A stretch of 16,120 bases of DNA. Origin: a virus (lineage: Duplodnaviria; Heunggongvirae; Uroviricota; Caudoviricetes). A program made the translations under genes and the position numbers. The notes beneath the pieces were generated by a model. That model had not been told where the DNA came from, did not search any database, and was given only the letters and a program-made list of their open reading frames with translations. Below, piece by piece: positions 1 to 15,668 of the stretch (positions within the stretch are counted from its first letter, which is position 1; the number at the start of each line of letters is the position of its first letter). Location of the stretch: the IMG/VR virus record IMGVR_UViG_2778261035_000013, positions 1 to 16,120 of that record; one strand, 5' to 3'.

Positions 1-1284
1 TTAATCAATCAAAAAATCCCACAAATCTCTTAAGGTATGGAAGTTTTGATTTCCACCGTTCATATATTCATCACACATTTTTTCAAGATCATCATCGTCT
101 ATTGACAGGATAAAACCTCTGCCATCATTTGCCGTGTCAAGACAACGCTGTCTGAATAATTTTTTATCCTCAATCTTCCTACAAACGAGAATACCTACAT
201 TTCCCCTATTCCTTGAGAACCTACCAGATAACTGATCTAACTCAGGATTTGCAATTTCTGACGTATAGTTTTTACACTCAACATAAATTCTAGGGCATGT
301 GTAATGTTGCGAAAGCCAATTAAAGAAACCATATTTGGCTTCATTATTATAAGTAATATCAATCCTCTTTCTACCATCATGAATTTTTTTCTGTTTCGTT
401 GGATAACATAATGAAGGATAGAATATTACAGAAAATATCTCTTCAATAAGATCTTCGTACTCCCCAGCTTGTTTTGTACCCGGCTTTAATGATTTTAATT
501 TATTGAGAATTGGATATATGTCAATTTTGTCACTGATTTCCTCTAACTCATTGAAAACTTCATGTGATAATGGTGCAGATGGATTTTTTTCTTTATGCTG
601 TTTATAATCTTCAAATACATCAGGCCGTTGTAAAGTTTGATTAATTACAGAAGGCTTATCACTTCCATATTTATTTTTTAAACTTTTTTTAGTTACTCGC
701 CTCGTGCCATTTTTTAATACCTCTACCAAGGAAGAGTTATTCCTTAAATGTTCATCTTGCATTTCTGGCAATAAATAATGATTATAAAACTCGTCATATT
801 GCAAACATAACCTATGTCTAACCAATAGCTTAGGAACTAATATTACTTTTCCATAAGTTGTCATTGGTAATGATACAAATTCACTATACCACTTTCCTCC
901 ATGTGGATCCCATATTGGCCCAGAATCAATATTGGGCGTTAATTTTACGCCATAATATTCACATATTTCTTGTGTGTATTTTATAAATGGACCTCTTAAA
1001 ATATTGCTTACTGCATCAGAAATCATGTCAGTCCCGATTCCTGGTATTAGTAGCGCTGTATCTTCAAGATCTTTTAACAATCCAGTTGTGACGGCCTTAC
1101 TTTGAGTTAGTGCATTCCAAACCGAATGAGCGGAGCCAGCGCCAAAACCATGTCCACGAGATTTTTCGGACGAATACCCTAAATGAAATTCATTCCTCTC
1201 ATTCAACGAGGCTAACAATTTTTGTGCTTCAGCATTTTTGCCAACCTTAATTAGTTTTAAAACCTTCTCAAAGAAACTTTGCAA
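1..1284 (-). CDS. hypothetical cargo protein (427 aa in ORF track) with C-terminal PD-(D/E)xK-like nuclease signature; candidate defence gene
   Basis: Long uninterrupted ORF whose stop codon is at 1..3. Motif ...HDGRKRIDITY...(26 aa)...RIYVECKNY fits the D...(D/E)xK pattern of restriction-endonuclease-fold nucleases. AT-rich (about one third GC over the first 60 nt). Only in-frame start before the first internal Met is TTG at 1284 with no obvious Shine-Dalgarno, so the 5' end is uncertain. Confidence 0.6.
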   Translation of the reverse strand: MQSFFEKVLKLIKVGKNAEAQKLLASLNERNEFHLGYSSEKSRGHGFGAGSAHSVWNALTQSKAVTTGLLKDLEDTALLIPGIGTDMISDAVSNILRGPFIKYTQEICEYYGVKLTPNIDSGPIWDPHGGKWYSEFVSLPMTTYGKVILVPKLLVRHRLCLQYDEFYNHYLLPEMQDEHLRNNSSLVEVLKNGTRRVTKKSLKNKYGSDKPSVINQTLQRPDVFEDYKQHKEKNPSAPLSHEVFNELEEISDKIDIYPILNKLKSLKPGTKQAGEYEDLIEEIFSVIFYPSLCYPTKQKKIHDGRKRIDITYNNEAKYGFFNWLSQHYTCPRIYVECKNYTSEIANPELDQLSGRFSRNRGNVGILVCRKIEDKKLFRQRCLDTANDGRGFILSIDDDDLEKMCDEYMNGGNQNFHTLRDLWDFLID

Positions 1285-2044
1285 GTGAGATGTAAGTTCT
1301 TGCCCCCAATTCGAATCTAAGGATTTAATAGCACCAGGGTCTAGAAAAACTGGTGTCAGTATCTAGTGGTATGTCAACGAAATCTAGATAAGCTTGAGAA
1401 CGATTAAGTTTGAAATATTCCGAAAAGCGCATAAAGACTCCTAAAAATCGAATGGTTTTTCAAAAAACATAACGCTATTAAAGAATCAACCAAAAATTGA
1501 TGAGATGGGGCACAGCTTAAGCAGAGAGATTCATGTTGAACGATTGAACTCATCATCTCAAGTAAAGATAAATATGGCAAGTACGTGGTTTGACGGTTGA
1601 GCAACCATTGATTGCTTCACCTATCAAAAAGTCGGATTAATATCAAGAAAGTTTAAAACACACCATCACTTAAAATCATTTAACGACGAAAATCGCACTA
1701 CACCGCACCCGCCTGCGGTTTTCATATCACTAAAATTTTTCAGTTGTGATTTTTTACAAACGATATCGCCAGCCCGCGCCCGCTCTGGGGATGCTCTGCG
1801 AGACAGGAACTGAAAAGAATGAAAAGAAATTCAGCTTTTTTCAGTTTTACTGTCCGTCATGTCTGTGGTCTGAATACGCAACACTATGATATTAAATGGA
1901 TAATTTATTTTAGGTGTGTGATTTTATGAAAATTTGTGAAACATGAAAAACATAACAACTTGAAAAATAATAATTTTATGTCCGTATAAACTGAAATCCT
2001 GTGTTCAGGTTTCGGGAACGGATCGGCCACTCCCGACGCATACT

Positions 2045-2317
2045 TTACCCATTTTTTTGCGCAGCCAGCAGCAACTTTAAAGCCTTTTCCCGCTCCTCGG
2101 GTGGAATGGCATCAATGAGCTCTTTAACCCTCCCCTGCCCGTTCAGCGCGCTTGGACTAACGGAATGGGAGAAAGCAACATTCATCACAAACGAGTGACC
2201 GCACTCCACATTAGAGCAATAGCAGTACACATCGTACAGTTGTGGGTGTTTCCTGTTTGTTTTACCTATCCGCGCTACTGCCTGACATGTGGGGCAGTAC
2301 ATTCTCATCATCTTCAT
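2045..2317 (-). CDS. ogr: Ogr/Delta-family zinc-finger late-gene transcription activator
   Basis: MYCPTCQ...(18 aa)...YCYCSNVECGHSF matches the CPxC...CxNVxCxxxF signature of P2 Ogr / P4 Delta. Several in-frame ATGs (2317, 2311, 2308, 2302), so the exact start is uncertain. Confidence 0.8.
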   Translation of the reverse strand: MKMMRMYCPTCQAVARIGKTNRKHPQLYDVYCYCSNVECGHSFVMNVAFSHSVSPSALNGQGRVKELIDAIPPEEREKALKLLLAAQKNG

Positions 2318-2385
2318 CGTTCTGTGCCCTATACTGTTGCCCGCCAGAGGAAGGGATTTGGAACCCTACCTCTTGTTCTGAACGC

Positions 2386-2574
2386 GTAACACTGGTAACA
2401 CGTGTAACATTATTGATTTAAAAGGATTTAATCTGTTACCAGTTAGCATAATCAAGAGGTAACGCGTGGTAACACACCATTTTTTGTTACCAGTGTTACC
2501 AGTCAGTATTTTTGACTGGTAACACTGAAGAACAGCATCAGTCGCGGGTGTTACCTCTGTTACCAGTGTTACCT
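2386..2574. repeat. iteron array (putative origin / cis replication region for the alpha primase-helicase)
   Basis: Eleven copies of the heptamer GGTAACA/TGTTACC in about 190 bp: forward at 2387, 2395, 2404, 2468, 2518; reverse at 2434, 2485, 2494, 2549, 2558, 2567; a near copy at 2458. Copies within clusters are spaced 8-9 bp. Lies between the alpha stop (2600) and the ogr start. Resembles the P4 type I iteron TGTTCACC. Confidence 0.65.
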
Positions 2575-2599
2575 CATAAAAATAAGACTCACGCGATAA

Positions 2600-5287
2600 T
2601 TACTCAGGTTCGGCGCTTCCCAGTACCTGTGTATTGAACTGGTACACACGTTTAAGCCCTATTTCTGGCAGGCGAATGCTGTTTTGCGTCCGGCCATCTT
2701 CACCGGGTTTCAGCCAGCCCGCGTCCACACACAACCTGGCCACCTTACGCGAGTCAAATCCCTTACAGATCTCCTTCCAGCCTGACGGGAGAACGTAGAA
2801 CGTCACAACCGGCTCCGTTACGTTGTCTCCTTTATCGACTTTTCTGAATCCCATCATTGAAACAGGCCGGTTCCTGTCGTCATTCCAGTCAGCAAACCGA
2901 CTGAACTGATTACGCGTCATGAAGTCCCGTACCTGTTCAAGTGCCGCTTTATCTTCCTGATTAGCTGTATGGCCACGGTCAGCCATCCATGCAGCCAGAC
3001 AACGTTGAGCGGCACGAAAGGCCTCTCCCTCCGGCCATCCTGTGATGCCCGCTTTTGTGGCCAGTTCCCCGGCCATCGCAACCAGAGCAAAACGGGTAAC
3101 AGCCCGGCCAACCTGATTCCCGGCATTTTCCGGCGTCAGCCTTCGGGTGTACTCTTTCAATAAGGCTTTCGCCTGGCTGGTCAGTTCCGGCAGTTCAGCG
3201 GTCAGGCAATGCAGCCAGTCGCGGAATGGTGCGCCATGATAATGCGCTACGTGCTGCTCAAGATGCTCAGCCAGGGTTTTCCCGCTACTGAAGCCATGAA
3301 GTTCTTCAAACACGCCATATTTGCCCGAATCGCTTGGGATCTGGATCATTCTGACCTCAACCCCGGCATACGTACGTTCCCCGGCGCTTGCGGCATGCTC
3401 TACCAGTGACAGTTCCCCGGTGGACAGAAACAACAGATTCCAGCGGTTGGTTTCCCTTACCGAACCATCTGTTCTTGCTCTGGCTTTGCCCTGCCCGTTA
3501 GCCAGCATATAAGCGATATTCCCCGCCTCCCTGCCGTCAACCTCCCGGATTTCATCGAGCATCAGCGTGGCATCATTGCGGCGGCTCGCCGTTCCTTCTA
3601 ATGCATTCCCCGTCGCCCGCCACGTATGCCAGAAATCTGTTCCACCACATACTGATGCAGCCACTTTCATCGTCGTGGTTTTACCGTCTGTTGATTCCCC
3701 TTTGAGGTGATAACCTCCACCGCCGATACCAACCAGTTTCAGAAGGGGGGCAGCAAATGCCAGACTCACCGCAAAGGCAAGACGGGCATTCTTTATGCAG
3801 TAACGGCCTATATTTTCACGCCAGTCCTCTGATGTGCCGCTGACACGAAAATCACGCCCCTGCACACTCGATGTTTGTAAGATGACTGACTGGGCTTCGC
3901 GCCCTATCACTTCATCCTGGAGAACGTAAACCCCGCCGTGCCAACCCGTTTTATTCACACAGGTTACTTTTCTGTCCGGTTTACACAGCGAGATATATTC
4001 CATCAGGAATGCTCTGGCCATACCGTTAATGTTGATGTAAGAAAGCCCGTTAACCAGCAGAACGCGGCGCAGTTCTTCCCCGCTGCCACCCAGCATCTCC
4101 ATCGGCATTGCCCATTTACGGCTGTTTCCGTTGGTATCTTCCCATTCCAGCAAACGCCCGTAATTACTTCCATCAGCATCACTGGTGATTGCCGTCACCC
4201 GCAACGGACTGCAAATTTTGATATTACGTATCTCTGTATCACCATCAGACTTATTAACCAGCTTGTCGTACCACAAATATTCTTTTGTCAGCCGGAACCC
4301 TTCTGGTAAACGGGTCTGCCCTTTGCCATGCAACGTCATTTCTTCACGAAAGGCATCTCTCGCCCGTTCTTTCCCCACTTCCTGCCGATAATCATCCCAG
4401 TCAGCCTTATGGCGTACCGGAGGGAGCGTTACCCAGCCATCCACCGCTTTGGCGGCTTTCTCTGCCTGAATACGCCCGGTGTTTTCTTTGCCGTCAGCCA
4501 GATCATTATCTCCTGCCACAATGATCCGGGTTTCCGGCCAGCGTTTTCGGATCTGCTCCGTCACCTTCAGTAAATTGGTGGCAGCGACAGCCGCCACGAT
4601 CCATCCTTCAGTCAGCAGACTGACGGTAAGCGCCGTGGCAAAACCCTCAGTGATAATCACCTGTTCAGGTGTTTCAGCGGGTATATCTGTCAGGGCAATG
4701 AATGCGCCAGACAGCTGGCTACCGGGCAGCAGACTTTTATCCCCGTCAGGATTGATAAGCTGGCCACCGGTAATATTCCCGGAAATATCCGTCAACGGCA
4801 GCAGTAATGAACCGGAGGAAAATGTTATTCCGGCCAGATTCAAAGGCTGTGACAGCAAGGGAAGTGAATACCCGTGTAAGCCCTTGTTTGTCAGATAGAC
4901 CGGCTCACCATTGCAGGACTGCTGTCTGAGTCGGGTATATCCCTCCGCGCCCGCTTCTTTTCCTGCTGCCTTTTTCCTGGCTGGCAAAGCGGGCTTCTCC
5001 TGTATTTCTGGTAATGCAAGCGCCTCAGATACCATCCCGGCGACTTCTTTTATCTTTCTCCCTGTCACCAGACGAACCAGGTCAAGACCATCGCCATGAC
5101 CGCACTGATTACAAAACCACGTCCCACGCCCCGCTTTATCGTCCAGCCGAAAGCGATCTTTTCCACCACAGGCAGGGCAAGCCCCATGATGTCCTGCGGA
5201 CGGTACTTTAATACCTAATGCTGACAGGATATAAGGCCAACGGCCAATTGCAGCCCCTGAAATTGTGGATACAGACGGTGTTTTCAC
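2600..5287 (-). CDS. P4 alpha-like bifunctional DNA primase-helicase (895 aa)
   Basis: N-terminal zinc ribbon CPACGGKDRFRLDDKAGRGTWFCNQCGHGDG, Toprim-like acidic motif IIVAGDNDLADG, Walker A P-loop GESTDGKTT in the C-terminal half. GTG start at 5287 overlaps the stop of the upstream ORF (GTGA). Confidence 0.9.
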   Translation of the reverse strand: MKTPSVSTISGAAIGRWPYILSALGIKVPSAGHHGACPACGGKDRFRLDDKAGRGTWFCNQCGHGDGLDLVRLVTGRKIKEVAGMVSEALALPEIQEKPALPARKKAAGKEAGAEGYTRLRQQSCNGEPVYLTNKGLHGYSLPLLSQPLNLAGITFSSGSLLLPLTDISGNITGGQLINPDGDKSLLPGSQLSGAFIALTDIPAETPEQVIITEGFATALTVSLLTEGWIVAAVAATNLLKVTEQIRKRWPETRIIVAGDNDLADGKENTGRIQAEKAAKAVDGWVTLPPVRHKADWDDYRQEVGKERARDAFREEMTLHGKGQTRLPEGFRLTKEYLWYDKLVNKSDGDTEIRNIKICSPLRVTAITSDADGSNYGRLLEWEDTNGNSRKWAMPMEMLGGSGEELRRVLLVNGLSYININGMARAFLMEYISLCKPDRKVTCVNKTGWHGGVYVLQDEVIGREAQSVILQTSSVQGRDFRVSGTSEDWRENIGRYCIKNARLAFAVSLAFAAPLLKLVGIGGGGYHLKGESTDGKTTTMKVAASVCGGTDFWHTWRATGNALEGTASRRNDATLMLDEIREVDGREAGNIAYMLANGQGKARARTDGSVRETNRWNLLFLSTGELSLVEHAASAGERTYAGVEVRMIQIPSDSGKYGVFEELHGFSSGKTLAEHLEQHVAHYHGAPFRDWLHCLTAELPELTSQAKALLKEYTRRLTPENAGNQVGRAVTRFALVAMAGELATKAGITGWPEGEAFRAAQRCLAAWMADRGHTANQEDKAALEQVRDFMTRNQFSRFADWNDDRNRPVSMMGFRKVDKGDNVTEPVVTFYVLPSGWKEICKGFDSRKVARLCVDAGWLKPGEDGRTQNSIRLPEIGLKRVYQFNTQVLGSAEPE

Positions 5288-5694: not shown

Positions 5695-5923
5695 CGCGCA
5701 TCACTCCCTTAATTGTGCTGGTTTCCTTAACAACGCCATCCAGTTGTTCGGCAATACAGGCCACTAAAGCCGCAGCGCCTTCCGCTGAAACAGTTCTCGC
5801 TCCATTCACTGTGGGAACGGACAGAACCTCTGCAAGAAATTCACTGGCCAGTGCCGCCCGTAACAGACGACTCTCACCCAGTTCACTCAATATGCAGCCT
5901 TGCTTAAAATTCATGGATTTCAT
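5687..5923 (-). CDS. hypothetical protein (78 aa), alpha-operon member
   Basis: ATG at 5923 overlaps the stop of the upstream ORF (ATGA); GGAGGTG Shine-Dalgarno 5 nt upstream. Confidence 0.5.
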   Translation of the reverse strand: MKSMNFKQGCILSELGESRLLRAALASEFLAEVLSVPTVNGARTVSAEGAAALVACIAEQLDGVVKETSTIKGVMRDE

Positions 5924-6123
5924 GCAACCACCTCCCCGGAGCTTTTCACAGGGATACGGGCAGCAAAGCTCAGGATAAATTCAGTGGCAAGTTTAAGGCG
6001 TGCAGCATGCTCGCAGTCTGCGATTACACGCACAGGACGTGGACGGGCATCACGGTCTGTACGGCGGACAGCCAGAAAGACAAAGGTAAATTCAGGGTGA
6101 GATAAAGCAGGGACTGTAGCCAT
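5920..6123 (-). CDS. hypothetical protein (67 aa), first gene of the alpha operon
   Basis: ATG at 6123 preceded by GAAGGAGG Shine-Dalgarno. The ORF-track ORF (5920..6609, 229 aa) extends upstream over the regulatory leader and terminator and is probably not translated there. Confidence 0.45.
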   Translation of the reverse strand: MATVPALSHPEFTFVFLAVRRTDRDARPRPVRVIADCEHAARLKLATEFILSFAARIPVKSSGEVVA

Positions 6124-6175
6124 AATGGCAACCTCCTTCAGATAGCGGGTAACGCTACCACCGGAGTTCCTACGC

Positions 6176-6342
6176 TCATGGGTGGTAGCCCAGACGGGGG
6201 TAGGAATACCGGCTCTGAAGGATACCGGCCAGCCCGAAAGCTGCCCCGCCTGGACTACCATAATACTGATGATGTGGCGTAAAAAATAAAAAAATACAAT
6301 CAGCCACCACACCATAAATTTTAGGTGAGTCAAAGCTGCGAC
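6176..6342 (-). ncRNA. candidate CI/C4-like immunity antisense RNA (boundaries approximate)
   Basis: Region between the intrinsic terminator and the operon RBS that contains the inverted (seqB-like) motif copy at 6199..6224; no coding potential with RBS seen. By analogy with P4 CI RNA and P1/P7 C4 RNA. Ends not determinable from sequence. Confidence 0.3.
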
Positions 6343-6367
6343 ACAAAAAAACACGCCTGGCGCGTGT
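6343..6367 (-). terminator. rho-independent terminator
   Basis: On the minus strand: ACACGC / GCCAG loop / GCGTGT followed by TTTTTTT (plus-strand A-run at 6345..6351). Confidence 0.6.
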
Positions 6368-6563
6368 AGTATCGCCTTCAGATAACACGGGTTCCTACGC
6401 CCGGCTGCCGATTTTGCGGCAACCTTTAAACTATATCCCGTGCATTCCTGGTGAGGCAAGAAATTTATAACCGAAAACTGATCATTGCCTGGATTAATTA
6501 ACGCTGGCATGCTTAAGCCTCTGCTTAAAAATAGTTCTTCATTTTTTCCTGATGCTGTAAACG

Positions 6564-6585
6564 AGACCCGCCTCTGAGCGGGTCT
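6564..6585 (-). terminator. hairpin immediately 3' of the capsid gene (putative terminator)
   Basis: Perfect 8-bp stem AGACCCGC/GCGGGTCT with 6-nt loop, 13 nt after the capsid stop; the T-rich tract is on the plus-strand side only, so function as a minus-strand terminator is uncertain. Confidence 0.35.
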
Positions 6586-6598
6586 TTCTGTCGCTAAG

Positions 6599-7603
6599 TC
6601 AATCCGCAAACGTCAGAGCGCTCTCATCGACAGCCGCGTACAGTTCTGGTTCACCGAGTGCATAGCCTTCATTGCGCAGGTAGGAATGTACGTATTCACT
6701 GTTTTCATCATCAAACTCAGCACGAAACCAGCGTGTTATCGCCTGGGTGTATATATGCAGATTATCCAGCGTCGTTACTGCCAGACGCTTACCCGGCATA
6801 AACGGGGGAATAAACGCAAAGCGGCCAGCAACAGAACTTGTAGCCATCTGTGCAGCATTCACATCAGCCGGGCGGTCTGCGGCATTAAATAACTTCAGGC
6901 GTTGATGTGCTGCCAGCTCTGCCCCAACTAGTACAACCAGACGGGGATCTTCACGAAACTGCTCAGCAATAAGCTCAGTAATCAGATGGTTGGCCAGAGA
7001 ATCAATATTTTTCCAGGTGCCAGTCTCTCCCAGAGTGACAGGCTCAGAGATGATTTGCTTCCCGTTTCCGTAGGCTTTCGCCAGTGCATGCCAGCCAATA
7101 TTGACATCCTCGCCTTTTTTATTGATTTCCGGGTTTGTAGTATTTGCAATCGACACACCATTGAAACCGATCCGCAGCATATCCAGCGCATATGCCTGAG
7201 CAAAAAAGCTCTCAACCGTTTTCTCAAACTCATCCGGCACGCCGGTATGGTAAATATGAGACATATCGGAATAGCTGATCCGGGCGCAGGTATCCGTCTC
7301 TGTCAGAAAGAACTCCGTACCATTGATTGCTATTTTTTTGTGGAAACGGCCACCATCCGCACGTCCGGTATGCAGTTCACTGGCACCAATATTGACGGCA
7401 TTACCTGACACGGCGTTAACATCACGTAGCGTGATATTTTTAATAAGCCAACCGGATTCCAGAATTGAGGTACGCAGTATATTTTCAGTGGGTTCGCTTA
7501 ATGCAAAGCGTCTGTTTGATTCCTCCTGATAGTTAGTGCCAGTAACGAATTTATTATGATAACGACGTGCTGCGTCCGGCCTTTCAGTTTTGAAGGCATA
7601 CAT
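6599..7603 (-). CDS. P2 gpN-like major capsid protein (334 aa; HK97 fold inferred)
   Basis: Recognisable similarity to P2 gpN as recalled from memory: N-terminal RFALSEPTENILRTSILESGWLIKNITLRDV vs KFTVEPSVTQTLMNTMQESSDFLTRINIVPV; GFNGV; NIGW vs AVGW; EDPRLVVLVGAELAA vs EDPDLVVIVGRQLLA; LDNLHIY vs LENLSIY. ATG start with GGTGA RBS. Confidence 0.75.
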   Translation of the reverse strand: MYAFKTERPDAARRYHNKFVTGTNYQEESNRRFALSEPTENILRTSILESGWLIKNITLRDVNAVSGNAVNIGASELHTGRADGGRFHKKIAINGTEFFLTETDTCARISYSDMSHIYHTGVPDEFEKTVESFFAQAYALDMLRIGFNGVSIANTTNPEINKKGEDVNIGWHALAKAYGNGKQIISEPVTLGETGTWKNIDSLANHLITELIAEQFREDPRLVVLVGAELAAHQRLKLFNAADRPADVNAAQMATSSVAGRFAFIPPFMPGKRLAVTTLDNLHIYTQAITRWFRAEFDDENSEYVHSYLRNEGYALGEPELYAAVDESALTFAD

Positions 7604-7625
7604 AGTTTTTCACCTTTTTTAGTAT

Positions 7626-8498
7626 TTAAGAAAAGATTTTATTTTTGTACTCAGTAACCCGATTGTATTTCATTACATGCTCAACATAATCCCGGTCACT
7701 TACGACTGAACGTAATACATAATTATCTGCTCGATAGTACTCCCTGTAAGCCATGACTCTTGCCATTCCACCGTTATTTAATACATAACGATCAGTTGGA
7801 ACGCTACAACGGCTAATAATTTCATTCACAGAATCAGACAAAGATTTGAGTGCATCTGTAATAAATTTAATATCACGAACAACGTCACCGTCATTAAACA
7901 CAGAAATAAAATCAGCAGGGATCTGGCCGGATTGAGGAAATATGCTCAGTAAACGCTTCTCAACTCCCTTACCAATGTAGTTAACTTCATCGGCCAGTAC
8001 GCCCGGTAAAAGCTTGATTGTGCTCAGTCGGTTATGTTGCTCATTCAGCCGGGAAACAGCCAGATGGTAACACCGTTCAGCATCCGCTCGTTCAGCATGC
8101 CCCGTTTTATTCGTTTTGGCTTCAGCAATGCTACTGACGCCGTTTTTTGAGAATGTGCTTTTCCATGCAACTTCCGCATTTGTCACTTCACGCTGCCGGA
8201 AAGATAACTCTTCCTCTTCCTGACGACACAACTGGGCATACCGGCTTAGGAGTAGGTTGATCTCATTCGCCACAGCTTCCGTATCAGGTACTGTTAATCC
8301 CGTAAGTGAATACAGCTTTTCACCTTTAGCGCGCAGCTTATTTAATGAAAATATTTCAATAATTCGCACAATACATGCAGTGTCGCTATGAGTTTCTTTA
8401 AACGGACTTACTTTATAGTTTCCTAACACGGAAACATATTCATTCTTAATTGGAAGGGATATGTATTGACTCCCCGCCGGTTGTAGACGGTAATTCAT
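7626..8498 (-). CDS. hypothetical AT-rich protein (290 aa) immediately upstream of the capsid gene
   Basis: ATG with GAGGAG Shine-Dalgarno; 22-bp gap to the capsid gene; central region rich in charged/helical sequence (LLLSRYAQLCRQEEEELSFRQREV...); lower GC than flanking backbone. Confidence 0.6.
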   Translation of the reverse strand: MNYRLQPAGSQYISLPIKNEYVSVLGNYKVSPFKETHSDTACIVRIIEIFSLNKLRAKGEKLYSLTGLTVPDTEAVANEINLLLSRYAQLCRQEEEELSFRQREVTNAEVAWKSTFSKNGVSSIAEAKTNKTGHAERADAERCYHLAVSRLNEQHNRLSTIKLLPGVLADEVNYIGKGVEKRLLSIFPQSGQIPADFISVFNDGDVVRDIKFITDALKSLSDSVNEIISRCSVPTDRYVLNNGGMARVMAYREYYRADNYVLRSVVSDRDYVEHVMKYNRVTEYKNKIFS

Positions 8499-8534: not shown

Positions 8535-8735
8535 TTACTCTGAAGAATGACTATCACGCCAAGCATAGTAGTCACCAGCACGCCATCGGGACATACGACC
8601 TAACTTGATTGGTTTAGGAAAACGTCCCAGAGAAATCAGTTTATAAATCCATTTATCAGTAAACAGACAATCAGATGTAATGAATTTCATATCAATGAGC
8701 GAGTCAGCAGAAGGACGATTATCAGTAAACCCCAT
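8535..8735 (-). CDS. alpA: AlpA-family phage transcriptional regulator / excisionase-like (66 aa)
   Basis: Motif LGRFPKPIKLGRMSRWRAGDYYAW matches the AlpA FPKPxKLG...W signature. ATG at 8735 preceded by AGAGAGGAA; the ORF-track start at 8759 is a TTG extension. Confidence 0.75.
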   Translation of the reverse strand: MGFTDNRPSADSLIDMKFITSDCLFTDKWIYKLISLGRFPKPIKLGRMSRWRAGDYYAWRDSHSSE

Positions 8736-8800
8736 AATGAGTTCCTCTCTATGTATCAATCTATATCAACGAAGAGGATTAAAACATCGTTCAAAAACAT

Positions 8801-9634: not shown

Positions 9635-10816
9635 TCAAGACTCCGTTCCACCAATAAAATCACTGTACCATTGCATCATTTCCCGACGCCCATCAAGATA
9701 CTGAGCATGATTATATATCCCCCGAATAGCATTTTTATCCAAATGTGCAAGCTGGGTTTCAATCCATGCACTATTGAAGCCTTTTTCATGCAAAATAGTG
9801 CTCATTGTGTGTCTGAAACCATGGCCAGTAACTCGGCCAGCATATCCAATACGCTTAAAGACCTGATTAATACTGGCCTCACTCATGCACTTACTTGGAT
9901 CGTTGCGCCCTGGAAACATCAAAGGATAGTTTCCAGTCAGTTCTTTTAATGTTTCAAGATGGGCTAATGCTTGATTTGAAAGCGGCACAATATGAGCACG
10001 TCGCATTTTCATACGTTCTTTAGGAATCTCCCACACCGCATTATCAAAATCCACCTCACGCCACTCACCTGCTCTTAGTTCTCCTGTTCTTAGACCCGTC
10101 AGGATAAGTAAATGTGCCCCCAGCAATACAATTGGGCTTCCTGAATAAGCGTTAAGGGCAGTAAAGAACTCCGGCAGCTCGTTGGCTTTGAGGAATGGAT
10201 AGTGGACTGCTTCATGTCCTTGCATCGCACTGGCAAGATCCGGTGCAGGATTGTAGATTGCTCTACCCGTTACGATGGCATAGCGGAAAACTTCACCGCA
10301 TCGCTGACGGACTTTCTTCGCTTTCTCCATAGCGCCTCGTGCTTCTATCAACCTCAGTACTTCAAGAAGTTCTAGGGGCTGAATATCGGCTATAGGTTTG
10401 TGTCCAATATGCGGGAAAATGTCTTTCTCAAACGCCTCAATGATGTCTGAAGCATAGCCCTCAGACCATTTGGGAGATTTCATTTTGTGCCACTCTAACG
10501 CCACTTCTCTGAATGGGTTAAGTGTCTCGATCGCTGCGTTTAAAGCATGCTTCTTTGCTTTTTTCACTTCGCCAGGATCTTCACCTGCTGCGAGTAGTTT
10601 CTTTGCGTCTTCGCGTTTTTGTCTGGCATCTGCGAGGGTGACTGTTGGATAGACACCAAAGGACAAGCGCTTCTCTTTACCAGCAAAACGGTACTTCATA
10701 CGCCAGTAACGCGAGCCATTAGGTTCAACCTGAAGGTACAGGCCACCTCCATCAGATAGCTTATAGCTCTTCTCTTTTCCTTTAGCGGCTTCAACCTTGC
10801 GAGCATTCAGCATCAT
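9635..10816 (-). CDS. int: P4-family tyrosine integrase
   Basis: N-terminus KSYKLSDGGGLYLQVEPNGSRYWRMKYRFAGKEK typical of P4-type integrases; C-terminal catalytic region with ...HGFRHT... and ...LAHLD...YNHAQY... consistent with the R/H/R/Y tyrosine-recombinase motifs; adjacent to the tRNA fragment. Start placed at the ATG at 10816; the ORF-track start at 10885 is TTG. Confidence 0.9.
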   Translation of the reverse strand: MMLNARKVEAAKGKEKSYKLSDGGGLYLQVEPNGSRYWRMKYRFAGKEKRLSFGVYPTVTLADARQKREDAKKLLAAGEDPGEVKKAKKHALNAAIETLNPFREVALEWHKMKSPKWSEGYASDIIEAFEKDIFPHIGHKPIADIQPLELLEVLRLIEARGAMEKAKKVRQRCGEVFRYAIVTGRAIYNPAPDLASAMQGHEAVHYPFLKANELPEFFTALNAYSGSPIVLLGAHLLILTGLRTGELRAGEWREVDFDNAVWEIPKERMKMRRAHIVPLSNQALAHLETLKELTGNYPLMFPGRNDPSKCMSEASINQVFKRIGYAGRVTGHGFRHTMSTILHEKGFNSAWIETQLAHLDKNAIRGIYNHAQYLDGRREMMQWYSDFIGGTES

Positions 10817-10980
10817 TGGGGGCACATTTCCTAGACCGAACAGAACATGCCCCCGATTGTGCCCCCAATTGTATGTTGATTTCAAGAGATAGGGGTTGAC
10901 GTCAAATGACGAAGAATCGCGTAATATCTATGTTTTTAAAGGGCTTTGTTGATTTGAGATGACTTGGAAATACTAAGGGA

Positions 10981-11026: not shown

Positions 11027-11356
11027 TATAAGAATCCGATTCTAATTCAAAGCATTACCCCATCAACACTGCGCTCACACGTCCCACCACATCAAAACAT
11101 GTAAAGCCTTGCAAGCCATTGTGAGGCCTTATGTGTCTCAGTTTTGTCCCATCTTGTATTACGACTCGCATAGCTAATGAAGATAAACGTGACGACAAAC
11201 GGCGAAGCAGTCTTCTTTTCTTTCGCTGCTTCCCCACACCCAGCATGCATACCTTTCCGTCATAACTGAAGTGAATGTCTGTTATGAGCGAGGAGCGGAC
11301 CTTGAATGAAGCACAAACATCCTATAGCTCCTATTATCAAAATGCGTGAGCAAAAA

Positions 11357-12172
11357 TTAATTGATATTTTGGGATATTTCTCTCAAGTATGGTTCAACCT
11401 CTGGGCGTTGCATATGATGCTTCATTGAGTCAAGAAAGGTTATGGGGGTTTGCATTACATCTACTTTAGATTTATTTTTCCTAATGAGAGTCATTCCTTT
11501 GCAAGTTTCTAAATATTCCTTAACTAAAGCTTTCTTTCGATTTCTATGCAAATCGCCTTTAAAAGCTAGAATATGAAAAATTGCGGCACCAATTACAATC
11601 TGTTTCACCGCGCATTCGGATGATTCGAATTCGCCCCATGAAATTCGACCAAAGAAAGGATTCGCATATCCAGAAGGATGCGCTTTGAGGTTATGGCCAT
11701 ATTTTAGCATTTCCGATGGTGTCAATTTTAATGGTTTAAACAACCCAGCCGAAATTGCAAAGTCTGAAAAGTCAGAACTCAACCCCAAAATAACATCTTT
11801 GTATTTATCAAAAAAAGACAATTTCTTCTCACTAGCCCTAGATGAATTAAATGCAACTTTAAGTAGCCAGCGAGAAAGCAAGCTATAATTATAATCGATA
11901 TTAACTTTTTCTTTTAAAAAACACTCTGTAAAGAAACCAGAGCGCTCTAGCATATTTTTGACATAACCATCTAAATTACATAGAACTACGTTATTACAAT
12001 GAAAACAAACATCTTTTATTTTAGCCTCACCACTTATCATTTTTTTTGATTTTTCTTGCCATCCTATAGTTTTCCCAGATGCTGTACTATATTGATATTC
12101 ATAGATGAAAGACGGGAGTATATGTTCTCTAGTCATTTTCCCTTCCTGACCACAATATATGCAAGTGCTCAT
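11357..12172 (-). CDS. hypothetical AT-rich protein (271 aa) with N-terminal HNH-like nuclease motif
   Basis: CIYCGQEGKMTREHILPSF...VCFHCNNVVLC gives a CxxC...EH...CxxC-N HNH-like arrangement in the first ~65 aa; ATG with AAGGA RBS; AT-rich. Confidence 0.6.
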   Translation of the reverse strand: MSTCIYCGQEGKMTREHILPSFIYEYQYSTASGKTIGWQEKSKKMISGEAKIKDVCFHCNNVVLCNLDGYVKNMLERSGFFTECFLKEKVNIDYNYSLLSRWLLKVAFNSSRASEKKLSFFDKYKDVILGLSSDFSDFAISAGLFKPLKLTPSEMLKYGHNLKAHPSGYANPFFGRISWGEFESSECAVKQIVIGAAIFHILAFKGDLHRNRKKALVKEYLETCKGMTLIRKNKSKVDVMQTPITFLDSMKHHMQRPEVEPYLREISQNIN

Positions 12173-12497
12173 CTTATTCCTTTATCAAAGATATAATAAC
12201 TAAAATTCGATTATAACAATTAAAAACTCGCGTTAGTAGTTGTTAACTTATCAATAAACAGTTTCTCAATTATTAGTCAGCATCATCAGAAGAAACCCCT
12301 CTCCAAAGATAATTTTATAAAATAATATAAATGTCCACGCCTGGCACGGAGTAGACTGGCTATCTAAGCTAAAGGTCTGCTGTGAGCGAAAAGCTGACAG
12401 GACGTAGTTTCTTGTTTAAAGAATCAGTTAAGGCATTAAAAATAGATGTAACCAGAGCCAAGGTATAATATCCTGGCTCTATTTACACTTGCGTACA

Positions 12498-13202
12498 TTA
12501 TTCTTGCTTTTTGGGAGGTTTTGGGTGTTTCTCAGGTAATTTTTCTGCAATCTTAAATACCCCCTCATCTTTTAGTATTGTTCGCATTACAAAATTTTCT
12601 ATAATTACCAAAAGTGATTTAAATTCAGCTTCGTTCGGTGACCATGCCCTGTGTGCTGCTGAGTTGCCAGCTTCGGTTACAATTTTAAGTTGGCTCCTTT
12701 CTGTTTCCCCAATAAAACCTTCCTCTTTAAGAATGTCAACCTTCTGGCCTAATGTATGTCCTGGGTGAATATTTAAAACTTCGACTGTTCTGTCAAAAAT
12801 AGTTCTGAGCCCAATTGCCGCTAAAATGAGTGATTTATTTTGAAATGCAATATACATTTCGTTCATTATCACATAAAGCTGATAATCTTTGCTTAATATC
12901 TCGCCAAACCAAGTGGGTCTAATCTCTTCTTGCTCTTGCGTAGGATATGTTGATATATGATAGTTATATACTATACAATCATAGCCTGACTCATCTCTTT
13001 CATAGTCGTAATCTTCACTATGACGGGATTTAATATATGTAAATATTCCGTCGCATCCCATGCACTCTAATAATTTGTATTCACTTTCAGCCCAAAAATA
13101 GTTGTCCCCATCCCCCTCGCTCCATTCTCTTTTTTTATAACCTATTGTGTGACAATTTTTTTCACCTTTACAGTATGGACAAGGCGCTTTGATTTTTTCC
13201 AT
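12498..13202 (-). CDS. hypothetical AT-rich protein (234 aa) with N-terminal zinc ribbon
   Basis: CPYCKGEKNCH...CMGCDG Cys cluster; C-terminal region with a GNSAAH motif loosely reminiscent of DUF4145/HEPN-like domains (unverified); ATG start without a clear Shine-Dalgarno. Confidence 0.5.
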   Translation of the reverse strand: MEKIKAPCPYCKGEKNCHTIGYKKREWSEGDGDNYFWAESEYKLLECMGCDGIFTYIKSRHSEDYDYERDESGYDCIVYNYHISTYPTQEQEEIRPTWFGEILSKDYQLYVIMNEMYIAFQNKSLILAAIGLRTIFDRTVEVLNIHPGHTLGQKVDILKEEGFIGETERSQLKIVTEAGNSAAHRAWSPNEAEFKSLLVIIENFVMRTILKDEGVFKIAEKLPEKHPKPPKKQE

Positions 13203-13572
13203 AATAATTATTCTGCCAATTAAATTAATATTGATATGACATATATGCCAATGATTTATAAACGATAAATTGACTATTCACTTTACTACAATAATTTTCA
13301 TATGAGTAGTGATAAGCCTCTCATTTTCTTTGTCGTAGATTGATCTGCTCTGTATCGATTAACACCGAATGGGGGAGTAGCTTCCGCTTTTGGCACATAG
13401 TAGTCCTAGAGACAGTGACGTAAAGTCATGGAGGATCGGTGGGAGGAGGTGCTAATCCTTTCATACAAAAAATATGTAAAATCAATAACGGCTGTAAATC
13501 ATTCAATACTCGCACTATCGGAAGTTCACCAGCCAGCCGCAGCACGTTCTTGCATACGACGAGCCTGCGGTT

Positions 13573-14127
13573 TCATTTATCTCCGACCGGAAACATCTTA
13601 TACAGTGTCGATACACCAACATCATAGATGATCGCCACCTTTTGGCGAGGAACGCCTGATGCAATTAATCGCCCGGCCTGCGCCCATTGTTCTGGTGTAA
13701 GTTTGGGACGACGTCCACCAATTCGTCCCTGCGCGCGAGCAGCTTCCAGTCCAGCTTTTGTTCGTTCAACAATCAGTTCTCGTTCCATTTCAGCCAAGGC
13801 ACCCATCACATGAAAGAAAAAACGCCCCATCGGTGTGCTGGTATCAATAGCATCCGTCAGGCTGCGAAAATTAACGCCACGTTCGCGCAACTCCTCAACT
13901 AGAATGACCAAATGCCGCATACTACGCCCCAGCCGATCCAGCTTCCAGACAACCAGTGTGTCACCTGCCGATAATGTCCTGAGCAGTTTTTTCAGTCCGG
14001 GCCTTTCGGACTTCGTACCGCTTATCTTGTCTTCAAAAATCAGCTCGCATCCTGCACAGTTCAGCGCATTACGTTGTAGATCTGTGTTCTGGTCATTTGT
14101 TGACACACGTACATAGCCAATAAGCAT
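13573..14127 (-). CDS. pin: Pin/Gin/Hin-family serine DNA invertase
   Basis: MLIGYVRVSTNDQNTDLQ...LVVWKLDRLGRSM...FRSLTD...MGRFFFHVMGALAEMERELI matches e14 Pin / Mu Gin (catalytic Ser in VRVST). Start placed at the ATG at 14127; the ORF-track start at 14163 is an upstream extension. Confidence 0.9.
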   Translation of the reverse strand: MLIGYVRVSTNDQNTDLQRNALNCAGCELIFEDKISGTKSERPGLKKLLRTLSAGDTLVVWKLDRLGRSMRHLVILVEELRERGVNFRSLTDAIDTSTPMGRFFFHVMGALAEMERELIVERTKAGLEAARAQGRIGGRRPKLTPEQWAQAGRLIASGVPRQKVAIIYDVGVSTLYKMFPVGDK

Positions 14128-14181
14128 GGTAGATCTCCCTGACAAAAGCAGGAATGATGCCATTTGCTCGTTATTTCTGCA

Positions 14182-14207
14182 TTTTCATAAACGTTGGTTT
14201 GAGAGAA
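14182..14207. other. left crossover site (pix/gix/hix-like) of the invertible segment
   Basis: TTTTCATAAACG TT GGTTTGAGAGAA has the 12+2+12 quasi-palindromic layout of Hin-family sites (compare hix TTATCAAAAACC AA GGTTTTTGATAA). Its inner half is an inverted repeat of the window end: the first 13 nt, GGTTTGAGAGAAG, match the reverse complement of 16108..16120 at 12 of 13. Confidence 0.55.
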
Positions 14208-14648
14208 GCGGCAAAACGAAATGTGGGCAACGGGGAAAACCAAATCCCTGATATGTCTTTCTGGACGGTTACTGGTGGCAATGGAAATTTTGTGATTCGT
14301 CAACCTGACGGGCTAATCATTCAGATGGTTACTGTAAGTATAAGCGGTCCAGTGGCGATGAATGGAATGACTGATAATGCTTATGCCATTACAGGTTCTA
14401 ATAAGTCTTATATTGCCACAGCCACATTGCCCTTTGTATTTCCTAATAAGGTGCTGGGCGTTATCCCTCTGGTATCAACAACAGCTTATGGTGGTGTATC
14501 CAGTAATATTACAGGTTCATACGCGACGGCGGTTTGTTCTTTTGCCGCTGTCAGGGGGAATAATACGATTGTGTTCAAAGTCGACAAACCACTGAATGCA
14601 GCCTTTCCTTCAGATACCAGCGTCTCAGCGTTAATCATTGGACGGTAA
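14196..14648 (+). CDS. tail fibre variable C-terminal cassette (currently promoterless/silent orientation)
   Basis: Reading frame begins inside the left crossover site (GLREAAKRNVGNGEN...); the upstream in-frame codons of the ORF-track ORF (from 14154) lie in the pin promoter region; followed directly by a tail-fibre assembly gene. Confidence 0.6.
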   Translation, partial: GLREAAKRNVGNGENQIPDMSFWTVTGGNGNFVIRQPDGLIIQMVTVSISGPVAMNGMTDNAYAITGSNKSYIATATLPFVFPNKVLGVIPLVSTTAYGGVSSNITGSYATAVCSFAAVRGNNTIVFKVDKPLNAAFPSDTSVSALIIGR

Positions 14649-14650
14649 TA

Positions 14651-15094
14651 ATGAACTCAGTATTCTTTTCACCCGGAAGTAAAAGTTTTTATCTGCAAGA
14701 ATTGTTTCCAGAATATGAGGATGCGGGAACGCTTCCTGATGATGTTATTGAAATTACCAGAGAAACATATGAGCAATTTCTTGGTCTGCATCCAGAAGGG
14801 AAAGAAATTGGCGCTGACAGTTCAGGACGGCCAATATGGATTAATTCCCCACCCCCTTCAAAAGAGGATGAGGTGTTGACGGCTGAAATGAAAAAAATAT
14901 CTTTGGTTTCAGAAGTCAATACCTACATCAATACCCATCAGTGGCCTGGCAAAGCTGCTATTGGTCGTCTGAAAGGCGAGGAACTGGCGCAATATAATTC
15001 GTGGCTGGATTATCTGGACGCACTGGAACTGGTCGATACTTCCTGTGCGCCAGATATTGAATGGCCTACGCCTCCGGCAGTTCAGGCCAGATGA
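14651..15094 (+). CDS. tail fibre assembly protein (147 aa) of the silent cassette
   Basis: ATG 2 nt after the upstream stop; C-terminal half AAIGRLKGEELAQYNSWLDYLDALELVDTSCAPDIEWPTPP parallels the C-terminus of the opposite assembly protein (TRLNAVLDYIDAVTATNTSTAPDVIWPELP). Confidence 0.7.
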   Translation: MNSVFFSPGSKSFYLQELFPEYEDAGTLPDDVIEITRETYEQFLGLHPEGKEIGADSSGRPIWINSPPPSKEDEVLTAEMKKISLVSEVNTYINTHQWPGKAAIGRLKGEELAQYNSWLDYLDALELVDTSCAPDIEWPTPPAVQAR

Positions 15095-15668
15095 CATCCG
15101 GCGCTGTGCTGGTATTTGTTGCCGTCACCGCGTCAATGTAATCCAGCACAGCGTTAAGCCGGGTTGTTTCTGCCTGCATCAGCTTCCGTCCGGCCTGTAA
15201 TTTCAGCTGAATCAGACCGATGGAAGCCATTGCAGCATCAATCAGTGACTGACGCTGTGCTTCTGCCGCGTCTACTGCGGCGCTATGCTGTGCCTCAGTA
15301 TCGGTCACCCATTTCTCACCATCCCATTTATCGTATGGCGTTAATGGGGCAATAGTGGTTGTATTTTCGGGGTAATCACCCGGTGCTGTGATCTGTTTTG
15401 ATTCTCCCGTTTCGGTGTTATAGACGATTTCACCGCGATGGTCTGGCACATATTCCCATGAATTTAAATTCACAGAACGACAGATAGCATAACCTGCCTT
15501 ATGTATACCTGGTGCATCCAGACAGGAATATGCCGGGATACCAACACCAACGGCAAGATATTCACTTGAAGTGGAAATATATTCCCGAGTTTCACCATCA
15601 TAGTTATAAACGGTAATATCCCCTGCCTTTGTAGCAACAAGTCCACTATTTAATATTGCTTTATCCAT
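15066..15668 (-). CDS. tail fibre assembly protein (200 aa) of the expressed cassette
   Basis: ATG overlaps the stop of the upstream fibre ORF (TAATG); Tfa/U-like size and C-terminal motif; convergent 29-bp overlap with the other assembly gene. Confidence 0.75.
   Translation of the reverse strand: MDKAILNSGLVATKAGDITVYNYDGETREYISTSSEYLAVGVGIPAYSCLDAPGIHKAGYAICRSVNLNSWEYVPDHRGEIVYNTETGESKQITAPGDYPENTTTIAPLTPYDKWDGEKWVTDTEAQHSAAVDAAEAQRQSLIDAAMASIGLIQLKLQAGRKLMQAETTRLNAVLDYIDAVTATNTSTAPDVIWPELPEA

What the first reader, a model, noticed from the sequence alone, without database searches (positions are those of the whole stretch)
2386..2574. Dense iteron array immediately 3' of the primase-helicase gene: putative satellite origin
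Seen in sequence: 11 copies of GGTAACA/TGTTACC (5 forward, 6 reverse) in about 190 bp, clustered with 8-9 bp spacing. Established: P4 alpha binds type I iterons (TGTTCACC) in ori and crr, and PICI/SaPI origins are iteron arrays directly downstream of the primase/rep gene. Inference: this is the cognate origin for the 895-aa alpha-like protein; the diverged iteron sequence suggests a distinct replicon specificity.
Basis: partly seen in the sequence, partly recalled or inferred. Interest (0 to 1): 0.45.

Follow-up and report, generated by a model that had tools for sequence, protein, structure and literature searches.

The report
Iteron origin of a phage satellite
A 190-bp block of twelve short repeats just after a primase-helicase gene in an E. 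coli phage-satellite-like island is very probably where that enzyme binds to start copying the island; the arrangement is well known from other satellites, but has not been described for this family.

Summary
The repeat cluster is real and far beyond chance. Nine exact GGTAACA/TGTTACC 7-mers lie in 189 bp, against 1.75 expected in the whole window. Comparison with other species shows 12 sites.

The sites have a fixed mirror layout on the gene strand (>>> < >> | << > <<<, centre ~2479). It starts 26 bp after the stop codon of the 895-aa primase-helicase.

In 18 related loci from E. coli to Xenorhabdus, the sites are conserved (95% vs 68% for spacers) with almost no indels. Other lineages keep the layout but change the repeat (GGTGTAACA, GGGTAACA, GGATACA, GGTGGAACA, GGGGAACA).

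Near-identical elements with different repeats differ almost only in the array and in the last ~50 codons of the helicase. Those codons encode a predicted winged helix. Its fold matches the origin-binding C-terminus of SaPIbov1 Rep.

- Only the N-terminal primase is P4 alpha-like.
- The helicase and DNA-binding part is SaPIbov1-Rep/Cch-like (DUF927).
- There is no second, crr-like cluster.

Origin firing itself is untested. This is a new member of a known kind, of moderate interest.

The parts
2600..5287 (-). Primase-helicase gene (895 aa). It has a Zn-ribbon and Toprim primase (aa ~33-307), a DUF927 AAA+ helicase (aa 331-614), and a helical C-terminal region ending in a winged helix.
   Evidence: ORF list. 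Pfam gives PF08273, PF13362 and PF06048. Aa 1-317 are 38% identical to P4 alpha. PDB sequence hits are SCCmec Cch 5dgk and SaPIbov1 Rep 8tch. It matches phrog_1139 over its full length.
2621..2851 (-). [quoted passage not shown] This is the segment that co-varies with iteron sequence.
2549..2573 (-). Iterons I1-I3 (2567-2573, 2558-2564, 2549-2555). Three direct GGTAACA copies on the gene strand with a 9-bp period.
   Evidence: 97-99% conserved in 18 loci.
2518..2524 (+). Iteron I4, inverted relative to I1-I3. With I5 it forms a 15-nt perfect palindrome around an A/T loop.
   Evidence: (inverted repeat I5).
2485..2500 (-). Iterons I5-I6 (2494-2500, 2485-2491).
2458..2474 (+). Iterons I7-I8 (2468-2474 GGTAACA, 2458-2464 GGTAACG). 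The dyad centre of the whole array lies between I6 and I7, at ~2479.
   Evidence: All six mirror pairs centre at 2479-2479.5, computed from the coordinates.
2434..2440 (-). Iteron I9.
2410..2433 (.). 24-bp spacer with 83% A+T and a conserved T.TAAATCAA core. It is the likely first melting site or a host-factor site (the WATCAA half of an IHF consensus).
   Evidence: Sequence, composition. It is the best-conserved of the longer (10 bp or more) spacers, at 0.75. The mirror spacer 2525-2548 is 58% G+C and variable.
2385..2409 (+). Iterons I10-I12 (2403-2409 TGTAACA, 2394-2400 GGTAACA, 2385-2391 CGTAACA). This is the mirror image of I1-I3.
   Evidence: (inverted repeat I1).
2578..2588 (-). Conserved box GTCTTATTTTT between the stop codon and I1. 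Its role is unknown, and it is not a convincing terminator.
   Evidence: Alignment. The RNA fold z-score is -1.1 and no terminator was called.
2339..2353 (-). Box A (CTTCCTCTGGCGGGC), 32 bp beyond I12. It forms an inverted pair with Box B around the array. That it belongs to the origin is a hypothesis only.
2659..2673 (+). Box B (CTATTTCTGGCAGGC), antisense inside the last codons of the helicase (RLPEIG), 86 bp from I1.
2045..2317 (-). ogr/delta-type zinc-finger activator gene, the next gene after the array. It is a neighbour and not part of the origin.
   Evidence: Pfam PF04606. It is absent from 8 homologous loci that keep the array.

Best explanation
The 2385-2573 array is the vegetative replication origin of this integrative, satellite-like island. 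The island's own primase-helicase recognises it.

Proposed mechanism, inferred by analogy with SaPI Rep proteins:
1. The C-terminal winged helix of each helicase subunit binds one GGTAACA site.
2. The twelve sites form two mirror-image sets of six, which would position two hexamers.
3. The DNA melts at an A/T-rich spacer, most likely 2410-2433.
4. The helicase loads itself without DnaA or a separate loader.
5. The fused P4-type primase domain makes the first primers.

What is shown: the array is non-random, it has a conserved geometry, it is physically linked to the helicase gene, and it co-evolves with the predicted DNA-reading residues of that protein. What is inferred: binding stoichiometry, the melting site and origin firing.
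For: 1. Enrichment. 9 of the 11 exact 7-mers in the window fall in 189 bp, against 1.75 expected in the whole window.

2. Footprint. In 18 non-identical loci (E. coli, Citrobacter, Enterobacter, Franconibacter, Kosakonia, Yersinia, Pectobacterium, Xenorhabdus and others), iteron columns are 94.6% conserved and spacers 67.5%. Only 2 of 189 columns contain a gap. Mann-Whitney p = 9e-20.

3. Geometry. Site offsets of 0, 9, 18, 49, 73, 82, 99, 109, 133, 164, 173 and 182 are nearly invariant. Distant lineages add 10-45 bp at the centre only.

4. Concerted change. All twelve sites switch together between lineages: GGTGTAACA, GGGTAACA, GGTTACA, GGATACA, GGTGGAACA, GGTGACA, and GGGGAACA in Pseudomonas satellite phiAH14b.

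5. Covariation.
- L017 and L019 differ at only 6 residues after aa 320 (651, 809, 846, 867, 883, 887) yet have different iterons.
- L021, L008 and L009 differ at 854, 861-865, 869-871, 878 and 880.
- R866 goes with GGTAACA. K866 goes with GGTGTAACA and GGGTAACA.
- The dip in DNA identity is confined to codons ~853-870 plus the array. It is clearest in L021/L008, where the 375 bp beyond the array are 94-100% identical.

7. The helicase core is DUF927, with hits to 5dgk and 8tch at E ~1e-12.

8. Literature.
- SaPI Reps bind 6-12 iterons immediately 3' of rep through a C-terminal winged helix, probably as two hexamers (PMC9371898, PMC7581432).
- A rep gene with a 3' iteron ori was shown to be functional for E. 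coli PICI EcCICFT073 (PMC6092414).
- A related element, pHS87b, exists as an 11.2-kb circle about twice as abundant as its integrated copy, with 'replication genes unknown' (PMC4739549).

9. The array stays with the helicase in 8 loci that lack ogr and capsid genes. There are no DnaA boxes in the region.
Against: - There is no experimental binding or replication data for this element.
- The A/T-rich spacer is off-centre (9 sites on one side and 3 on the other), unlike the central A/T region described for SaPIs.
- In pHS87b the equivalent array lies ~660 bp downstream of the helicase gene, not adjacent to it.
- Iteron arrays can also serve copy control or transcriptional control, and this one sits directly upstream of ogr.
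- The covariation rests on a handful of lineages, and recombination of a CTD+array module would give the same picture. That would still imply a functional pairing.
- The structural match covers a predicted model only.
Confidence: 0.8

Rival explanations
1. The array is only an operator or promoter region that controls the downstream ogr/delta gene, or terminates and insulates the primase transcript. It would be bound by a regulator other than the helicase, or by the helicase acting purely as an autoregulator.
For: It lies between the primase stop (2600) and the ogr start (2317). A TGT-N12-ACA dyad, the form of P2/P4 late-promoter activator sites, can be read at 2374-2391, overlapping I12. This is from the sequence and my own knowledge of that consensus.
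Against: - The array is kept at the helicase 3' end in 8 loci that have no ogr.
- L021 and L008 have different iterons although the ~375 bp beyond the array, including the first ~290 bp of ogr, are 94-100% identical.
- The TGT-N12-ACA dyad is not conserved in L006, L007 or L010.
- No promoter or terminator was called within the array.
- Covariation is with the helicase C-terminus.
Confidence: 0.06
2. The array is a crr-like cis enhancer or a copy-number/incompatibility (handcuffing) site. It binds the helicase, but replication starts elsewhere in the element.
For: In P4 the iteron block that sits directly 3' of alpha is crr, not ori. Iterons of plasmids are known to mediate copy control (general knowledge; PMC4980987 reviews iteron origins).
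Against: No second cluster of the same or a related motif exists in the window or in the 32.5-kb TK3887 locus. The array itself contains the conserved A/T-rich element and the mirror-image site arrangement expected of a loading site. In the homologous SaPI system the 3' array is the origin (PMC9371898).
Confidence: 0.08
3. The repeats are arm-type integrase sites or a packaging (cos/pac) recognition region.
For: Phage attachment and packaging regions also carry short repeated protein-binding sites. P4's crr abuts attP.
Against: - The integrase gene and the element end are about 7-8.5 kb away.
- Loci sharing GGTAACA have unrelated integrases, at 28%, 59-61% and 83-94% identity to the window's.
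- There is no similarity to the P4 cos region.
- Covariation is with the helicase.
Confidence: 0.02

Closest known systems
SaPIbov1 Rep and its ori (staphylococcal pathogenicity islands); SCCmec Cch
   Same: The DUF927/MCM-like AAA+ helicase core is shared. The C-terminal helical region plus winged helix has the same fold. Both have 6-12 short iterons in both orientations immediately 3' of the gene, with an A/T-rich spacer, and a model of self-loading as two hexamers (PMC9371898, PMC7581432).
   Different: Here the host is Gram-negative and a P4/DnaG-type Zn-ribbon-Toprim primase is fused to the N-terminus; SaPIbov1's primase is a separate AEP protein (PMC7581432). Sequence identity is only ~12-15% in the C-terminal region. 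The sites are 7-9 bp long in a strict 6+6 mirror layout, and the A/T-rich element is off-centre.
Bacteriophage P4 alpha protein with ori and crr
   Same: The primase domain is homologous at 38% identity. Both proteins are ordered primase, then helicase, then C-terminal winged helix (PMC2777425). An iteron block lies directly 3' of the gene, with 9-10 bp spacing and both orientations. The iteron looks alike (GGTGAACA vs GGTAACA). The element also shares a P4-type integrase, a CI/C4-type RNA region and a delta-type gene.
   Different: The helicase is DUF927, not SF3/D5-type. There is no detectable similarity of the C-terminal DNA-binding domain. There is a single cluster instead of ori + crr. 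There are no sid or psu genes; a P2-family capsid gene is present instead.
E. coli PICI EcCICFT073 Pri-Rep-ori
   Same: Same host species and the same layout: int, alpA, pri-rep, then an iteron array (GGTAGACAG type) within 300 bp 3' of the gene. Function of rep+ori was shown experimentally (PMC6092414). The island also carries a capsid gene.
   Different: The Rep protein is not homologous (BLASTP E 0.029 over 34 aa). The iteron sequence and arrangement differ.
pHS87b (P. aeruginosa integrative plasmid) and satellite prophage phiAH14b
   Same: Both have Toprim primase + DUF927 helicase. pHS87b also has ogr/delta and a P2-family capsid, and integrates at tRNA-Thr. Both carry GGGAACA/GGGGAACA arrays with the same >>> < >> ... 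<<< order. pHS87b is found as a free circle (PMC4739549).
   Different: Primase and helicase are separate genes. The helicase is ~33% identical. In pHS87b the array is ~660 bp downstream. The papers did not identify the origin.

Membership tests
SaPI-type self-loading Rep helicase with 3' iteron origin | Initiator is an AAA+ helicase of the SaPIbov1 Rep/Cch (DUF927) type | tested here: met
   PF06048 at E 2e-91 over aa 331-614. phmmer hits to 5dgk and 8tch at E ~1e-12.
SaPI-type self-loading Rep helicase with 3' iteron origin | C-terminal domain with a winged helix that reads the iterons | tested here: met
SaPI-type self-loading Rep helicase with 3' iteron origin | Six to twelve short iterons immediately downstream of the rep ORF, in both orientations | tested here: met
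   12 sites at 2385-2573, starting 26 bp after the stop codon.
SaPI-type self-loading Rep helicase with 3' iteron origin | A/T-rich region at about the centre, with half of the iterons on each side | tested here: inconclusive
   A conserved 83% A+T spacer (2410-2433) is flanked by oppositely oriented sites, but it splits them 9:3. The geometric centre (~2479) has only a short A/T run.
SaPI-type self-loading Rep helicase with 3' iteron origin | Specific Rep-iteron binding, ATP-independent melting, and rep+ori sufficient for replication | not testable with these tools
   Only indirect support: iteron and winged-helix covariation and the free circular form of the relative pHS87b (PMC4739549).
P4 alpha / ori-crr replicon | DnaG-type Zn-ribbon + Toprim primase domain homologous to alpha | tested here: met
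   38% identity over aa 1-317, E 5e-50. Pfam PF08273 and PF13362.
P4 alpha / ori-crr replicon | Superfamily-3 (D5-type) helicase domain | tested here: not met
   No alignment beyond aa 317. The domain is DUF927.
P4 alpha / ori-crr replicon | Alpha-type C-terminal origin-binding domain and type I iteron TGTTCACC | tested here: not met
   hhalign probability 0.1%. The P4 alpha domain is not among the listed fold hits. The iteron is TGTTACC, one base shorter.
P4 alpha / ori-crr replicon | Two separated iteron regions (ori and crr), both required in cis | tested here: not met
   There is a single cluster in the window and in 32.5 kb of TK3887.
Classical iteron plasmid origins (RepA/pi/TrfA type) | DnaA boxes next to the iterons, with host DnaB loaded by DnaA/DnaC | tested here: not met
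   No TTATCCACA-like site with up to 2 mismatches between 1904 and 2831. The initiator is itself a helicase.

The most novel reading that the evidence does not exclude
The strict 6+6 mirror layout, invariant to the base pair across Enterobacterales and with length changes allowed only at the centre, may be a template in which each of the twelve winged helices of a head-to-head double hexamer docks on one iteron.

The natural series of near-identical proteins with different iterons then gives a readable recognition code for this winged helix. R866 goes with GGTAACA, K866 with GGTGTAACA/GGGTAACA, and residues 869-871/W880 with GGATACA.

In addition, the inverted CTGGCNGGC boxes flanking the array (2339-2353 and 2659-2673) may be fixed start sites for the fused primase. 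They are conserved at the DNA level in two different reading frames and in non-coding DNA. If so, the whole initiation reaction (site, loader, helicase, primer start) would be encoded in about 3 kb.
Probability: 0.2. Interest if true: 0.6.

Novelty: new member of a known kind. Interest (0 to 1): 0.35.

Why it matters
It assigns an origin and an initiator to a widespread but little-studied group of integrative elements. About 8% of complete E. coli genomes carry this one, and relatives occur across Enterobacterales and in Pseudomonas. For a relative, the pHS87b paper explicitly stated that the replication genes were unknown.

It shows that the SaPIbov1-Rep/Cch type of self-loading helicase, fused to a P4-type primase, is used by P4-like elements of Gram-negative bacteria.

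The natural specificity swaps offer a compact system for studying how a hexameric helicase reads its origin. They could also be used to build orthogonal small replicons or satellite-based delivery vectors.

Tried and rejected
- P4 alpha C-terminus homology. BLASTP, hhalign of a 12-sequence profile against the alpha C-terminus and a profile search of PDB sequences all found nothing. The iteron likeness to P4 is therefore left unexplained.
- Terminator reading of the conserved GTCTTATTTTT box. The RNA fold z-score is -1.1 and no terminator was called in the region.
- sigma-70 promoters. None was called inside the array.
- DnaA boxes. None in the region.
- P4 cos. No match in the window.
- TGT-N12-ACA (Ogr/delta-type site) at 2374-2391. 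It is present in the window, L003 and L005 but not in L006, L007 or L010, so it is treated as probably fortuitous.
- Plasmid evidence. OX345456.1 (99.5% identical, labelled a plasmid) is a 7-kb linear contig and gives no evidence of autonomy. pTAO100 has its own RepM. The Photobacterium record is a linear protelomerase element. Only pHS87b is informative.
- Rfam. No family covers the array.
- The DNA fold z-score of -6.95 for the array simply restates the inverted iterons. It is not evidence of a cruciform.

Full report
**Context**

The first 11,026 bases of the window are 100% identical to an island in the chromosome of E. coli TK3887, which lies next to tRNA-Thr/proA. All island genes are on the - strand:
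- a P4-type integrase (9635-10885);
- a weak AlpA-like HTH (8535-8759);
- a 290-aa unknown protein;
- a P2-family major capsid protein (6599-7603);
- an Ash/Icd-like protein (5920-6609), overlapped by Rfam C4 antisense RNA and isrK matches;
- two small ORFs;
- the 895-aa primase-helicase (2600-5287);
- the repeat array;
- an Ogr/Delta zinc-finger gene (2045-2317);
- a variable cargo gene.

No terminase, portal, tail or lysis genes lie within the island. The layout is that of a P4-like satellite. The 501-bp region around the array is present in 450 of 5,426 complete E. coli genomes, always on the chromosome.

**The observation**

GGTAACA occurs 11 times in the window on both strands, and 9 of these lie between 2394 and 2573. 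The expected number for the whole window is 1.75, and none of 200 shuffles reached 11. The exact 7-mer count in the array is 3+6. Three one-mismatch sites complete a set of twelve.

On the primase strand the order is >>> < >> | << > <<<. Each of the six mirror pairs is centred at 2479-2479.5, so the array consists of two mirror-image sets of six. It starts 26 bp after the stop codon. No second cluster exists in the window or in 32.5 kb of TK3887.

**Comparative evidence**

A scan of one genome per species returned 58 loci encoding relatives. Every locus with the gene's 3' end intact (L041, matched only to aa 855, has none) has 8-12 copies of a short repeat within 450 bp of the gene.

In 18 non-identical loci that use GGTAACA, from E. 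coli to Yersinia and Xenorhabdus:
- the twelve sites are 94.6% conserved, against 67.5% for the spacers;
- only 2 of 189 columns contain a gap;
- Mann-Whitney p = 9e-20.

Site offsets (0, 9, 18, 49, 73, 82, 99, 109, 133, 164, 173, 182) are almost invariant. More distant lineages insert 10-45 bp at the centre only.

Other lineages keep the layout but replace all sites together:

| Repeat | Loci |
|---|---|
| GGTGTAACA | L012, L017, L023, L024, L033 |
| GGGTAACA | L019, L025, L027 |
| GGTTACA/GGTGACA | L008 |
| GGATACA | L009 |
| GGTGGAACA | L034 |
| GGTGACA | Paraburkholderia |
| GGGGATACA | Accumulibacter |
| GGGGAACA | Pseudomonas satellite prophage phiAH14b |

**Covariation with the protein**

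Pairs of elements with near-identical helicases but different repeats are natural experiments.
- L017 and L019 differ at only six residues after aa 320: 651, 809, 846, 867, 883 and 887.
- L010 and L012 differ at 13, including 846, 850, 866, 870 and 887.
- L021, L008 and L009 differ at 854, 861-865, 869-871, 878 and 880.

At the DNA level the loss of identity is confined to codons ~853-870 and the ~215-bp array. This is clearest in L021 versus L008, where the next 375 bp, including the start of ogr, are 94-100% identical. R866 is found with GGTAACA-type sites, and K866 with GGTGTAACA and GGGTAACA (L033 and L034 read by eye).

The repeat type does not follow the integrase. Integrase identities of 28%, 59-61% and 83-94% all occur with GGTAACA. 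It does not follow ogr either, which is absent from eight loci that keep the array.

**The protein**

Aa 1-317 are 38% identical to the primase domain of P4 alpha. Nothing beyond that aligns. The middle is DUF927, with PDB sequence hits to SCCmec Cch and SaPIbov1 Rep.

An AlphaFold2 model of aa 640-895, built on 36 sequences, has mean pLDDT 84. It shows a helical region followed by strand-strand-helix-helix-hairpin, which is a winged helix. Its best structural matches are:
- Cch.

The covarying residues fall in the recognition helix (846-855) and the wing (869-884). The C-terminus has no detectable similarity to that of P4 alpha.

**Mechanism**

The literature establishes several points.
- SaPI Reps are self-loading helicases whose C-terminal winged helix binds six to twelve iterons immediately downstream of rep. 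An A/T-rich region lies between oppositely oriented sites, and two hexamers are probably loaded (PMC9371898, PMC7581432).
- Cch (DUF927) is related to SaPIbov1 Rep (PMC7581432).
- A rep gene with a 3' iteron ori was shown to work in E. coli for the PICI EcCICFT073 (PMC6092414). Its Rep is not homologous to this protein, but its 3' region carries GGTAGACAG-type repeats.

By homology of the helicase and its C-terminal domain, and by the covariation, the array is best read as the cognate origin. The twelve sites would position two hexamers. The conserved 83% A+T spacer 2410-2433 (core T.TAAATCAA) would be the likely melting or host-factor site, and the fused primase would supply primers. The absence of DnaA boxes fits a self-loading initiator.

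A relative, pHS87b of P. aeruginosa, has Toprim + DUF927 genes, ogr and a P2-type capsid, and integrates at tRNA-Thr. It is a free 11.2-kb circle about twice as abundant as its integrated copy, and its authors could not name the replication genes (PMC4739549). It carries a GGGAACA array of the same order ~660 bp after the helicase gene.

**Limits**

- Binding, melting and firing are inferred.
- The A/T-rich element is off-centre, unlike the SaPI description.
- The array may also influence ogr transcription or copy number.
- The covariation rests on a few lineages, and exchange of a CTD+array module by recombination would produce the same pattern. That would still argue for a functional pair.

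**Comparison and novelty**

It works like, and by helicase and C-terminal fold belongs with, the SaPIbov1-Rep/Cch type of initiator-origin pair. It is not a P4 alpha/ori-crr replicon. Three of the four defining features tested failed: the SF3 helicase, the alpha-type DNA-binding domain with its iteron, and the bipartite ori/crr. In the papers I could search, I found none that identifies the origin of this element family.

It is therefore a new member of a known kind. The added value is the base-pair-fixed 6+6 geometry and the natural specificity series. Interest is moderate.

**Extra finding**

A box with consensus GCYTYWTTY-CTGGC-R-GGC occurs exactly three times in the window, against 0.31 expected for its core.
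- Box A (2339-2353, - strand) is non-coding and lies just beyond the array.
- Box B (2659-2673, + strand) is antisense in the helicase's last codons.
- Box C (4971-4985, + strand) is antisense in the primase linker.

Their positions are conserved across genera, including loci without ogr. B and C are read in different frames (RLPE and PAR), so the constraint is on the DNA. Boxes A and B form an inverted pair around the array, each pointing away from it. Priming sites, outward promoters or a long-range RNA pairing are all possible. None was tested.

Noticed in passing
window 2339-2353 (-), 2659-2673 (+), 4971-4985 (+): A box with consensus GCYTYWTTY-CTGGC-R-GGC occurs three times (core expected 0.31). 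Two copies form an inverted pair flanking the iteron array, and two lie antisense inside the primase-helicase ORF in different reading frames. Positions are conserved across genera, including loci without ogr. The function is unknown (priming sites? promoters? RNA pairing?).
   Followed up: partly
window 6178-6265 (-) and 6346-6423 (-): Rfam matches to C4 antisense RNA (81 bits) and isrK (69.5 bits) lie inside or upstream of the Ash/Icd-like gene. The region is 71% identical in DNA to the P4 cI region. This suggests a P4/P1-type antisense-RNA immunity system in the island.
   Followed up: partly
window 6599-8498 (-); loci L003-L032; L067 (pHS87b): The island has a P2-family major capsid gene and an adjacent 290-aa unknown gene, but no sid or psu. 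The set int / 290-aa / capsid / ash / primase-helicase / ori / ogr is conserved in many Enterobacterales. A similar set is found on the circular P. aeruginosa plasmid pHS87b. This may be a distinct satellite lineage that brings its own capsid protein.
   Followed up: partly
window 1-1672: Similarity among E. coli islands stops near 1672-1695. The left-end cargo gene (partial here, 477 aa in TK3887, phrog_27295 of unknown function) is variable, and is preceded by a very A/T-rich stretch (1880-2000, 17-23% G+C). This is a possible accessory or defence hotspot.
   Followed up: no
window 11027-16120: Identity to TK3887 ends at 11026, inside what is tRNA-Thr in that strain, and ARAGORN finds no tRNA in the window. 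What follows are a DUF4145 protein, a resolvase-type DNA invertase (13573-14163), and oppositely oriented tail-fibre C-terminus and tail-fibre-assembly genes (14154-16117). This looks like an invertible tail-fibre cassette of a prophage lying next to the island. The prophage might be a helper.
   Followed up: partly
window 2578-2588 (-) and 2410-2433: Two conserved non-iteron elements lie within or next to the array. One is GTCTTATTTTT, between the stop codon and the first iteron; it is not a convincing terminator. The other is T.TAAATCAA in the A/T-rich spacer, which matches the WATCAA half of the IHF consensus.
   Followed up: partly
loci L021, L026, L032: Some homologues are damaged. L021 has a 33-aa in-frame deletion in the helicase, and L026 and L032 have truncated ORFs. 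All three still keep full iteron arrays, so these copies are probably decaying.
   Followed up: no
L064 (OX345456.1): A Salmonella record labelled 'plasmid: 118' that is 99.5% identical to the helicase is a 6,989-bp linear contig of a fragmented assembly. It is not evidence for an episomal form.
   Followed up: yes
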